A program made the translations under genes and the position numbers. A model generated the notes under the pieces. That model saw only the letters and a list, made by a program, of their open reading frames with translations. It was not told the origin of the DNA and ran no database searches. From the human T2T-CHM13v2.0 reference genome, Homo sapiens, in assembly GCF_009914755.1 (NCBI RefSeq), contig NC_060926.1: DNA of 64,000 bases; one strand, given 5' to 3'. This document shows positions 5,716 through 6,458 of the stretch, piece after piece (position 1 is the stretch's first letter; the number at the start of each line of letters is the position of its first letter).

Positions 5716-5869
5716 CAAGTGATAGAATATCTCCCATATCTAAAGAGAACTGAAGCACTGTGCCTTTTTCTTTAATATAGGAGGTGCATGGTGTAATAAC
5801 TTGTCCTTTACATTGAAGGAATGTCCTAGCTTGCCTCAAAACATGGACTATAAAAATGTCACTAATGTT

Positions 5870-6004
5870 CTGCAGCCAATTAAGCCAACTGAGTTCCTTT
5901 CCTTGTGGGGGCCCAGTGTGCAATGGCTGCACACAGCAGCTTCCTTGGTAGTGTACACAGCCTGTTGGTTGTATGGGTTGCTCTGAGGGACCTTGGAGAC
6001 AGGC
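5870..6004 (+). ncRNA. SNORA70: Box H/ACA snoRNA SNORA70 (U70) retrocopy
   Basis: 135 nt 'ctgcagccaattaagcc...ccttggagacaggc' matches SNORA70 as I recall it; H box ACAGCA 5933-5938; ACA 5999-6001, 3 nt from the 3' end; adjacent to RPL10, its known host gene. Confidence 0.93.
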
Positions 6005-6052
6005 CTTTCCAATGGATGTTCATGTTTCTGACCTTGCGCTACCCCAATGTAG
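6005..6052 (+). other. Retained 3' part of the RPL10 host intron with branch point and acceptor
   Basis: CTGAC at 6028-6032 and 'tgtAG' at 6051-6052, immediately before RPL10 coding sequence GCTCCAAACAGGC. Confidence 0.85.
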
Positions 6053-6427
6053 GCTCCAAACAGGCATGCGAGGTGCCTTTGGAATGCCCCAGGGCACTGT
6101 GGCCAGGGTTCACATTGGCCAAGTTATCATGTCCATCCGCACCAAGCTGCAGAACAAGGAGCATGTGATTGAGGCCCTGCGCAGGGCCAAGTTCAAGCTT
6201 CCTGGCCACCAGAAGATCCACATCTCAAAGAAGTGGGGCTTCACCAAGTTCAATGCTGATGAATTTGAAGACATGGTGGCTGAGAAGTGGCTCATCCCAG
6301 ATGGCTGTGGGGTCAAGTACATCCCCAATCGTGGCCCTCTGGACAAGTGGCGGGCCCTGCACTCATGAGGGCTTCCAATGTGCTGCCCCCCTCTTAATAC
6401 TCACCAATAAATTCTACTTCCTGTCAA
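6053..6427 (+). pseudogene. RPL10P: RPL10 (uL16) processed pseudogene, 3' exons only
   Basis: Translates as [10 protein letters not shown]...[18 protein letters not shown]...DKWRALHS*, the RPL10 C-terminus; TGA 6366-6368; AATAAA 6406-6411; short A tail; exact TSD aaaaatgtcactaatgt at 5852-5868 and 6428-6444. Confidence 0.97.
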
Positions 6428-6458
6428 AAAAATGTCACTAATGTACCCTAAATTTTCT

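What the first reader, a model, noticed from the sequence alone, without database searches (positions are those of the whole stretch)
5852..6444. Retrocopy of a snoRNA-ended, polyadenylated RPL10 RNA (SNORA70 + intron tail + spliced 3' exons)
Seen: an exact 17-bp TSD (aaaaatgtcactaatgt, 5852-5868 and 6428-6444) encloses, in order, a complete SNORA70 starting within 1 nt of the TSD, 48 nt of intron ending in AG, RPL10 coding sequence to the stop, AATAAA and a short A tail. Established: SNORA70 sits in an RPL10 intron, and L1-mediated snoRNA retroposons carrying downstream host exons have been described, U70 among them. From my memory of the RPL10 gene, a further intron at QK|IH (6215/6216) is missing here, so the template was spliced downstream but not at the snoRNA intron. 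Inference: the 5' end falling on the mature snoRNA end is unlikely to be random truncation. It records a stable germline RNA protected at its 5' end by the H/ACA snoRNP, like SPA-type (5' snoRNA-capped, polyadenylated) RNAs.
Basis: partly seen in the sequence, partly recalled or inferred. Interest (0 to 1): 0.8.

Follow-up and report, generated by a model that had tools for sequence, protein, structure and literature searches.

The report
Known SNORA70–RPL10 snoRNA retrocopy

Summary
An exact 17-bp target-site duplication (5852-5868 / 6428-6444) encloses one T, a full SNORA70 (5870-6004, Rfam 153.9 bits), and 48 nt colinear with the RPL10 intron downstream of SNORA70. The last two RPL10 exons follow, joined at 6215/6216 where the X-linked parent has a 75-nt intron, then the stop, AATAAA and a 2-7 nt A tail.

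Genome-wide I found 28 snoRNA-bearing copies. Seventeen start within about 5 nt of the snoRNA 5' end, and 0 of 28 carry any of the 339 nt of upstream intron.

It is not new:
- Weber 2006 (PMC1687206) defined exactly this as the "Type-3 U70 snoRT", covering 30 of 42 human RPL10 pseudogenes. It proposed cleavage plus exonucleolytic trimming to the snoRNA 5' end.
- Luo & Li 2006 (PMC1802619) list a chr2 copy, U70c, that I take to be this one.
- A 2025 long-read study (PMC12152556) detected the RPL10-SNORA70 "3'-snoRT" RNA itself.

Only the SPA analogy is added, and it is a label. Verdict: real, correctly read, already known; low interest.

The parts
5852..5868 (+). 5' target-site duplication (AAAAATGTCACTAATGT); the pre-insertion bottom strand reads TTTTT/AT at the nick, which is L1-endonuclease-like
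5869..5869 (+). first templated base (T), 1 nt upstream of the annotated snoRNA; matches parent L020 1501
5870..6004 (+). SNORA70I, a complete H/ACA snoRNA copy. The ACAGCA hinge motif and the ACA 3 nt from the 3' end are read from the sequence. It has 8 differences from the present parent snoRNA; 3 are changes on the parent's side and 5 are private to the copy (snoRNA nt 18, 35, 36, 88, 116).
   Evidence: Rfam 153.9 bits, model 1-135/135; parent scores 161.8; polarisation against 26 other copies
6005..6052 (+). retained 3' part of the RPL10 penultimate intron (48 nt, ends AG)
   Evidence: colinear with L020 1637-1684, 44 of 48 identical
6053..6215 (+). RPL10 penultimate exon (163 nt)
   Evidence: colinear with L020 1685-1847; Pfam Ribosomal_L16
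6216..6368 (+). coding part of the RPL10 last exon up to TGA (6366-6368). The 6215/6216 junction is the spliced site where the parent has a 75-nt intron.
6369..6425 (+). RPL10 3' UTR with AATAAA at 6406-6411
6426..6427 (+). residual poly(A) tail: 2 A outside the TSD, and up to 7 if the TSD's leading A run is counted
6428..6444 (+). 3' target-site duplication

Best explanation
Window 5869-6427 is a Type-3 U70/SNORA70 snoRNA retroposon, annotated SNORA70I + RPL10P6 and, by my reading, 'U70c' of Luo & Li. An RPL10 pre-mRNA from the X-linked gene failed to splice the penultimate intron that hosts SNORA70, while its last intron was spliced and its 3' end was cleaved and polyadenylated normally. Everything upstream of the snoRNA was removed, most likely by 5'-to-3' exonucleolytic trimming that stopped at the assembled H/ACA snoRNP. 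This left an RNA of about 560 nt plus a poly(A) tail. LINE-1 endonuclease nicked a TTTTT/AT site in what is now an SNHG31 intron. LINE-1 then reverse-transcribed this RNA to its very 5' end by target-primed reverse transcription and created the 17-bp duplication. Shown here: the anatomy, colinearity with the parent, the spliced junction, the TSD, and the family-wide shared 5' end. Inferred: that an exonuclease was blocked by the snoRNP, that the event was germline, and that the age is roughly 10-25 Myr. The coding remnant is a dead fragment. The snoRNA copy is structurally intact and lies in sense orientation in a host-gene intron, so it may be processed as a snoRNA; this was not tested.
For: Anatomy and TSD. 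Parent mapping: the copy is colinear with G000:C23 (L020) 1501-1847, then resumes after the GT..AG intron, with 18 mismatches in 559 nt. Family: the whole-genome search gave 44 matches. After fetching all loci, 28 copies bear snoRNA sequence. Seventeen start at parent 1497-1506, 11 are 5'-truncated inside the snoRNA, and 0 of 28 carry any of the 339 nt of upstream intron (L040's start is taken). The chance of at least 17 of 28 ends falling in one given 10-nt window of a 630-nt template is about 5e-24. Literature: the Type-3 definition, the count of 30 of 42, and the mechanism are in Weber 2006. U70c at chr2:215419918, intronic, with poly(A) and hairpin-hinge-hairpin-tail structure, is in Luo & Li Table 1. 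Polyadenylated '3'-snoRT' RNAs whose 5' ends lie 2 nt upstream of H/ACA snoRNAs, with RPL10-SNORA70 confirmed by ddPCR and some snoRTs cytoplasmic, are in PMC12152556. Retention of the intron puts a TGA at L020 1164-1166. That is 335 nt upstream of the snoRNA and 681 nt upstream of the last exon junction, so the retained-intron RNA fits the established rule for an NMD substrate. NMD would supply the cleavage step (inference).
Against: Nothing in the sequence contradicts the reading. Limits remain. The last 3-4 bases of the TSD (ATGT) resemble the parent sequence just upstream of the snoRNA (ATGC), so the template's 5' end could lie up to about 5 nt further upstream, and microhomology may have set the junction. 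The A tail is very short. DNA alone cannot tell an exonuclease stalled at the snoRNP from a precise endonucleolytic cut. The copy's state at 6010-6012 (CCAATG) differs from the parent (CAGGTG) and from most mid-aged copies (CAGATG) but resembles L003 and the oldest copies; I did not resolve this. The genome search scores only the best candidates (40 of 53), so the family counts are lower bounds.
Confidence: 0.93

Rival explanations
1. The template was a full-length, intron-retaining RPL10 mRNA, and the 5' end at the snoRNA is ordinary random 5' truncation by the LINE-1 reverse transcriptase.
For: 5' truncation is common for LINE-1-made copies (established knowledge). Eleven of the 28 copies are indeed truncated inside the snoRNA.
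Against: Seventeen of 28 ends fall in one 10-nt window (P about 5e-24 under uniform ends), and 0 of 28 lie in the 339 nt of upstream intron or in upstream exons. A reverse transcriptase moving 3' to 5' would have to cross the whole snoRNA and then stop exactly at its first base.
Confidence: 0.02
2. The same snoRNA-ended RNA was the template, but its 5' end was made by a precise endonucleolytic cut or by internal initiation at the snoRNA, not by an exonuclease blocked by the snoRNP.
For: The DNA records only the end point, not how it was made. The starts are very sharp, at -2 to +1 in 11 copies with readable TSDs.
Against: Intronic snoRNA 5' ends are normally set by exonucleolytic trimming (established; Kiss & Filipowicz 1995, seen only as a reference entry). 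In PMC12152556 the 3'-snoRT 5' ends coincide with snoRNA starts for both box C/D and H/ACA classes, which fits a generic snoRNP block better than a sequence-specific cut. No promoter evidence was sought.
Confidence: 0.1
3. The element is a chimera made by template switching of the LINE-1 reverse transcriptase from RPL10 mRNA to free SNORA70, or it is a DNA-level duplication of the RPL10 3' end.
For: Template-switch chimeras with small RNAs exist (Luo & Li describe one H/ACA-Alu chimera).
Against: The snoRNA, the 48-nt intron tail and the exon are contiguous exactly as in the gene, which a switch between two mature RNAs would not give. The last intron is missing, and a poly(A) signal, A tail and TSD are present, which rules out a genomic duplication.
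Confidence: 0.01
4. The window copy was copied not from the X-linked gene but from another, transcribed SNORA70/RPL10 retrocopy (a second-generation copy).
For: Second-generation copying does occur in this family. L011 on C12 carries about 100 nt of the 3' flank of L006 on C1, inside its own TSD.
Against: The window copy ends at the RPL10 poly(A) site with no foreign flank. It is closer to the parent (18 mismatches in 559) than to the next-best copies, which are 94-96% identical. It shares the parent's derived states at snoRNA nt 62 and 98-99.
Confidence: 0.03

Closest known systems
Type-3 U70 snoRNA retroposons (snoRTs) of Weber 2006, PLoS Genet 2:e205 (PMC1687206)
   Same: All defining features match: the start at the mature snoRNA 5' end, the whole downstream intron, processed 3' exons, the poly(A) tail, a TSD abutting the insertion point, and an L1-type nick site. 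My counts are 17 full + 11 partial, against Weber's 18 + 12.
   Different: Nothing of substance. I did not see Weber's Figure S3, so I cannot say whether this particular chr2 copy is drawn there.
U70c retrogene in Table 1 of Luo & Li, Nucleic Acids Res 35:559 (PMC1802619)
   Same: U70c is on chr2, intronic, has a poly(A) tail and a hairpin-hinge-hairpin-tail structure, and is listed at 95.7% identity. My search found only three SNORA70 copies on chr2 (215.3, 61.4 and 165.1 Mb), and these correspond one to one to U70c, U70d and U70e.
   Different: The coordinates are from an older assembly, so the identification rests on chromosome, order and neighbourhood, not on a lift-over.
3'-snoRT RNAs (snoRNA-retaining transcripts), PMC9394076 and PMC12152556
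   Same: These are polyadenylated RNAs whose 5' end lies at or 2 nt upstream of a retained H/ACA snoRNA. RPL10-SNORA70 is one of the validated cases. This is the RNA that the retrocopy records.
   Different: They were observed in somatic and cancer cells, not in the germline. Neither paper contains the word stems 'retropos' or 'pseudogene', so they do not connect the RNA to the retrocopies.
SPA lncRNAs (5' snoRNA-capped, 3' polyadenylated; Wu et al. 2016, Prader-Willi region)
   Same: The same end architecture: a snoRNP as the 5' protecting group and a poly(A) tail at the 3' end.
   Different: By my recollection of Wu 2016, SPAs carry box C/D snoRNAs, arise after poly(A)-site cleavage of an upstream gene in a long read-through transcript, are many kilobases long, and stay at their transcription site. 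I saw only the abstract start of PMC12084880. Here the snoRNA is H/ACA, the RNA is about 0.56 kb, and it is a by-product of a protein-coding host gene.
Conventional RPL10 processed pseudogenes
   Same: The same parent gene, the same LINE-1 machinery, and the same 3' end.
   Different: Those (about 10 found here, e.g. L016, L019, L022) have all introns removed and carry upstream exons. The window copy keeps the snoRNA and intron tail and lacks every upstream exon.

Membership tests
Type-3 snoRNA retroposon (Weber 2006) | 5' end coincides with the 5' end of the mature snoRNA | tested here: met
   The TSD ends at 5868 and the Rfam snoRNA starts at 5870, with one templated T between them.
Type-3 snoRNA retroposon (Weber 2006) | contains the entire intronic sequence downstream of the snoRNA | tested here: met
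   6005-6052 is colinear with L020 1637-1684, all 48 nt without a gap.
Type-3 snoRNA retroposon (Weber 2006) | [quoted passage not shown] | tested here: met
   The parent's 75-nt GT..AG intron is absent at 6215/6216.
Type-3 snoRNA retroposon (Weber 2006) | poly(A) tail at the host gene's polyadenylation site | tested here: met
   AATAAA lies at 6406-6411 and an A run begins at 6426. The tail is short, 2-7 A.
Type-3 snoRNA retroposon (Weber 2006) | TSD abutting the insertion and an L1 endonuclease-type target | tested here: met
   17-bp exact TSD, reached by 0 of 500 shuffles; the bottom strand reads TTTTT/AT.
SPA lncRNA (as template RNA) | 5' end formed by a snoRNA/snoRNP instead of a cap | tested here: inconclusive
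   The DNA shows that the template began at the snoRNA, in 17 of 28 copies. The absence of a cap and the binding of a snoRNP cannot be read from DNA. RNA evidence is in PMC12152556.
SPA lncRNA (as template RNA) | 3' polyadenylation | tested here: met
   AATAAA plus an A tail at the RPL10 site.
SPA lncRNA (as template RNA) | box C/D snoRNA at the 5' end, made from a read-through polycistronic transcript after upstream poly(A) cleavage (feature recalled from Wu 2016, not read here) | tested here: not met
   The snoRNA is H/ACA (RF00156), and it lies in an internal intron of a protein-coding gene.
Functional SNORA70 paralogue | intact H/ACA architecture | tested here: met
   Full-length Rfam match of 153.9 bits, against 161.8 for the parent. 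The MFE fold gives hairpin-hinge-hairpin, but its energy is no better than that of shuffles (z = 0.03).
Functional SNORA70 paralogue | retained guide complementarity to the rRNA target | tested here: inconclusive
   In both parent and copy, 3'-hairpin nt 82-87 and 116-120 can pair with 18S 1693-1698 and 1686-1690, around U1691/U1692. The copy's A116G turns an A-U pair into G-U, and G88A lies next to the pocket. That 18S-1692 is the SNORA70 target is recalled, not looked up. The geometry leaves 3 guide bases unpaired.
Functional SNORA70 paralogue | expression and snoRNP assembly | not testable with these tools
   No paper in the searched library contains 'SNORA70I' (0 occurrences). The sense orientation in an SNHG31 intron comes from the hub's annotation.

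The most novel reading that the evidence does not exclude
The SNORA70/RPL10 retrocopy family is a germline fossil record of the recently described, partly cytoplasmic, dyskerin-bound '3'-snoRT' RNAs. On this reading such uncapped, snoRNP-headed poly(A) RNAs are markedly better LINE-1 substrates than the far more abundant mature RPL10 mRNA: 28 snoRNA-bearing copies against about 10 conventional ones. That would answer Weber's open question of how a 'strictly nuclear' snoRNA meets the LINE-1 machinery. The TGA that intron retention creates 335 nt upstream of the snoRNA would make NMD cleavage plus XRN1 trimming the source of the template. The second cluster of 5' ends, at snoRNA nt 39-58, would mark either a half-protected RNA species or a reverse-transcriptase stall at the 5' hairpin.
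Probability: 0.25. Interest if true: 0.4.

Novelty: already known. Interest (0 to 1): 0.12.

Why it matters
As a single locus it matters little. It is one of about 30 human copies of a class described in 2006, and RefSeq already annotates both halves (SNORA70I, RPL10P6). The family remains a neat illustration that retrocopies preserve the ends of transient RNA species. It showed a snoRNA-headed, polyadenylated RPL10 RNA about a decade before SPA RNAs were named, and nearly two decades before long reads detected the RPL10-SNORA70 3'-snoRT directly. The two 3'-snoRT papers I examined do not connect the RNA with the retrocopies, so a short note linking the two literatures could be useful. That would be a synthesis, not a discovery.

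Tried and rejected
- **Random 5' truncation, template-switch chimera, genomic duplication and second-generation origin.** Each was tested and rejected; see the rival explanations.
- **Thermodynamic fold of 5870-6004.** The MFE shape is hairpin-hinge-hairpin, but the energy equals that of shuffles (z = 0.03). I use it only as a picture, not as evidence.
- **Naive scan of 18S rRNA for bipartite guide complementarity.** With three pocket definitions it did not single out any site. The top hits (U1232, U210, U1347) had one-sided pairing only. A targeted look around U1692 gave a plausible but non-canonical 5+6 bp arrangement. Guide function is left open.
- **Search for the retroposon-SPA link in print.**
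  - Searches ('SPA lncRNA', snoRNA, retroposon; snoRNA retroposon / retrogene / snoRT / SPA, 2016 onward) returned no paper making the link.
  - 'retropos' and 'pseudogene' have 0 occurrences in PMC9394076. PMC12152556 has 0 occurrences of 'retropos' and of 'pseudogene'.
  - These searches cover only the open library, so subscription papers may make the link.
- **Yeast hybrid mRNA-snoRNA transcripts (listing abstract).** They end at the snoRNA 3' end, the opposite architecture, so they are not a match.
- **Dating by orthologous empty sites.** Not possible, because no other primate genome is held.

Full report
**What is in the window**

- An exact 17-bp direct repeat, AAAAATGTCACTAATGT, lies at 5852-5868 and 6428-6444.
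- It is the longest exact direct repeat in 5600-6700. None of 500 shuffles of that region reached 17; the maximum was 14.
- Between the repeats, Rfam finds a complete SNORA70 at 5870-6004: 153.9 bits against a gathering score of 40, model positions 1-135 of 135.
- One base, T5869, separates the repeat from the snoRNA.
- The bases before the repeat (…ACTAT|AAAAATG…) give TTTTT/AT on the bottom strand. This fits the LINE-1 endonuclease preference as quoted by Weber 2006 (ttAAAA on the top strand).

**Mapping to the parent gene**

A search of the window's own genome with 5869-6427 found the X-linked parent on contig C23 (locus L020). BLAST against it, together with the exon blocks defined by fully spliced pseudogenes, gives the parent layout:

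| Parent feature | L020 coordinates |
|---|---|
| Upstream exon ends | 1162 |
| Penultimate intron | 1163-1684 |
| SNORA70 within that intron | 1502-1636 (Rfam 161.8 bits) |
| Intron tail ending AG | 1637-1684 (48 nt) |
| Penultimate exon | 1685-1847 |
| Last intron (GT…AG, 75 nt) | 1848-1922 |
| Last exon, with stop, AATAAA and cleavage site | from 1923 |

- The two-base AG ambiguity at the last intron makes the BLAST blocks leave 73 nt unaligned.
- The window copy is colinear with parent 1501-1847 (15 mismatches in 347) and then continues directly with the last exon (3 mismatches in 212).
- Window 6054-6365 translates without a stop, ends at TGA 6366-6368, and matches Pfam Ribosomal_L16.
- AATAAA is at 6406-6411. 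The A run starts at 6426; only two A lie outside the repeat.

All the observed points are confirmed.

**Is the 5' end meaningful?**

I fetched every match and aligned all loci to 2.2 kb of the parent.
- Twenty-eight loci carry snoRNA sequence joined to the intron tail and spliced exons.
- Seventeen begin at parent 1497-1506, where the snoRNA starts at 1502: L001, L002, L004-L007, L009, L010, L012, L013, L015, L017, L021, L029-L032.
- Eleven are truncated inside the snoRNA: L003, L008, L011, L014, L018, L024, L027, L028, L034, L038, and L040. L040's start at about nt 40 is taken only, because it is too diverged.
- None of the 28 carries any of the 339 nt of intron upstream of the snoRNA. In the alignment, their flanks become unrelated to the parent right at (T)CTGCAG.
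- In the 11 copies with a readable duplication (L001, L002, L004-L007, L009, L010, L017, L021, L032), the first templated base is at -2 to +1 of the Rfam start.
- In the other six full-length copies the duplication is eroded or displaced by an Alu, and I could not place the junction to the base.
- Under uniformly scattered ends, at least 17 of 28 in one given 10-nt window has a probability of about 5e-24.
- About ten further loci are conventional, fully spliced RPL10 pseudogenes: L016, L019, L022, L023, L025, L026, L033, L035, L036, and perhaps L037.
- L039 holds only part of the last exon and cannot be classed.
- The genome search scores only the best candidates (40 of 53), so all these counts are lower bounds.

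**One caveat on the window copy's junction**

The last bases of its duplication (ATGT) resemble the parent just upstream of the snoRNA (ATGC). Microhomology may therefore have placed the junction, and the template could have extended a few bases further. This does not change the picture, because the other copies have unrelated target sites and the same start.

**Mechanism**

The template was an RPL10 RNA with three properties: unspliced at the snoRNA intron, spliced at the last intron and polyadenylated, and lacking everything upstream of the snoRNA.
- A reverse transcriptase moving 3' to 5' cannot plausibly cross the entire snoRNA and stop at its first base in 17 independent events. The RNA itself must have ended there.
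- The best-supported explanation is 5'-to-3' trimming blocked by the H/ACA snoRNP.
- I add one sequence-based point. Retaining the intron places a TGA at L020 1164-1166, directly after the donor G. That is 335 nt upstream of the snoRNA and 681 nt upstream of the last exon junction.
- By the established 50-55-nt rule, the retained-intron RNA would be an NMD substrate. NMD endocleavage followed by XRN1 digestion could therefore supply the cleavage-and-trimming step. This is inference.
- LINE-1 then inserted the RNA by target-primed reverse transcription, as shown by the TSD, the nick site and the A tail.

**Age**

Polarising the 15 differences in the first block against the other 26 aligned copies gives 4 changes on the parent's side and about 11 on the copy's side, several of them at CpG sites. 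The exon part has 6 changes in 375 nt. With a primate neutral rate of about 1e-9 per site per year (recalled), this suggests roughly 10-25 Myr. I could not check orthologous sites.

**State of the snoRNA copy**

- The ACAGCA hinge motif and the terminal ACA are intact (read).
- The Rfam score is close to the parent's.
- Five private changes lie at snoRNA nt 18, 35, 36, 88 and 116. Positions 18, 88 and 116 are upper-case in the Rfam consensus.
- Around 18S U1691/U1692, the 3'-hairpin strands of parent and copy can both form 5+6 base pairs, with A116G giving a G-U pair.
- An unbiased scan did not single this site out.
- That 18S-1692 is SNORA70's target is my recollection. Function is open.

**Comparison with the literature**

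*Weber 2006 (PMC1687206).* I read sections 8 and 15 in full and passages of section 14 and others.
- It defines Type-3 snoRTs by exactly these features.
- It states that 30 of 42 human RPL10 processed pseudogenes are Type-3 U70 snoRTs: 18 with the entire snoRNA and 12 with a partial one.
- It says this is the major mode of RPL10 retroposition.

*Luo & Li (PMC1802619).* I read section 11 in full, plus Table 1 rows and footnotes in passages.
- The table lists U70c: intronic, chr2:215419918, 95.7%, with a poly(A) tail and typical H/ACA structure.
- My search found only three SNORA70 copies on chr2, and they match U70c, U70d and U70e by order, so I take U70c to be this locus.

*PMC12152556 (2025), passages only.*
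- It reports long reads of polyadenylated "3'-snoRT" RNAs whose median 5' end is 2 nt upstream of H/ACA snoRNAs.
- It validates RPL10-SNORA70 by ddPCR.
- It finds some snoRTs in the cytoplasm.

The SPA papers (Wu 2016; Lykke-Andersen 2014, 2018) I saw only as reference entries, plus the abstract start of PMC12084880. What I say about them beyond "5' snoRNA capped and 3' polyadenylated" is recalled.

**What is not in print, as far as I could search**

The two 3'-snoRT papers lack the word stems 'retropos' and 'pseudogene'. Two full-text searches found no paper tying snoRNA retroposons to SPA or 3'-snoRT RNAs. The library holds open-access papers only. I did not see the supplements of Weber or of Luo & Li.

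**Verdict**

The element class, this copy and the proposed mechanism have been published since 2006, and the template RNA has since been observed. It is a member of a known family with all defining features met. Interest is low.

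Noticed in passing
L011 (G000:C12:75662233-75665737) and L006 (G000:C1:201234655-201238199): L011 is a retrocopy of a retrocopy. It matches L006 from snoRNA nt 43 through L006's own poly(A), its 3' TSD and about 100 nt of chr1 flank (89.5% over 637 nt). 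It then has a new A-rich tail and its own 12-bp TSD, AAGAAAATGTGT. The chr1 copy was therefore transcribed and mobilised again.
   Followed up: partly
L003, L008, L011, L014, L018, L024, L028, L034, L040 (5' ends at parent L020 1540-1559): Nine of the 11 truncated copies begin at snoRNA nt 39-58, the 3' strand of the 5' hairpin. Two independent ones (L011, L018) begin at exactly nt 43. For at least 8 of 11 in a given 20-nt window of 630, P is about 1.6e-10. This could be a reverse-transcriptase stall at the hairpin, as Weber presumed, or a second, half-protected RNA species. The two are not distinguished here.
   Followed up: partly
L020 1503 and 1554 (parent SNORA70 nt 2 and 53); window 5871 and 5922: The present X-linked SNORA70 has C2 and G53. 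The window copy and nearly all others have T2 (15 of 16 others) and A53 (20 of 22 others), as does the Rfam consensus. In the Rfam structure nt 2 pairs with nt 53, so the parent lineage made a compensatory U-A to C-G change after these copies were made. The MFE fold prefers a different basal stem (nt 2-9 with 55-62), so the pairing is not certain.
   Followed up: no
window 6010-6012 (parent L020 1642-1644): The intron-tail state CCAATG in the window copy differs from the parent (CAGGTG) and from most mid-aged copies (CAGATG). It resembles the young copy L003 (CCGATG) and the oldest copies (CCAATG). This does not fit a simple linear history of the parent. Recurrent CpG decay, a polymorphic source allele or gene conversion are possible explanations.
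   Followed up: no
window about 6446-6600: Directly after the 3' TSD comes a T-rich, TTTA-repeat stretch (6452-6494). Sequence follows that I recognise by eye as an Alu in antisense orientation (…tttttgagatggtgtcttgctc…). It is a separate retroposition about 40 nt from the snoRT. Weber notes that such neighbouring insertions are frequent.
   Followed up: no
L020 1163-1166 (parent RPL10, start of the SNORA70-hosting intron): Retention of the snoRNA intron gives an in-frame TGA immediately after the donor G (…GAC AGG TGA). This is 335 nt upstream of SNORA70 and 681 nt upstream of the last exon junction. The retained-intron RNA is therefore predicted to be an NMD substrate.
   Followed up: partly
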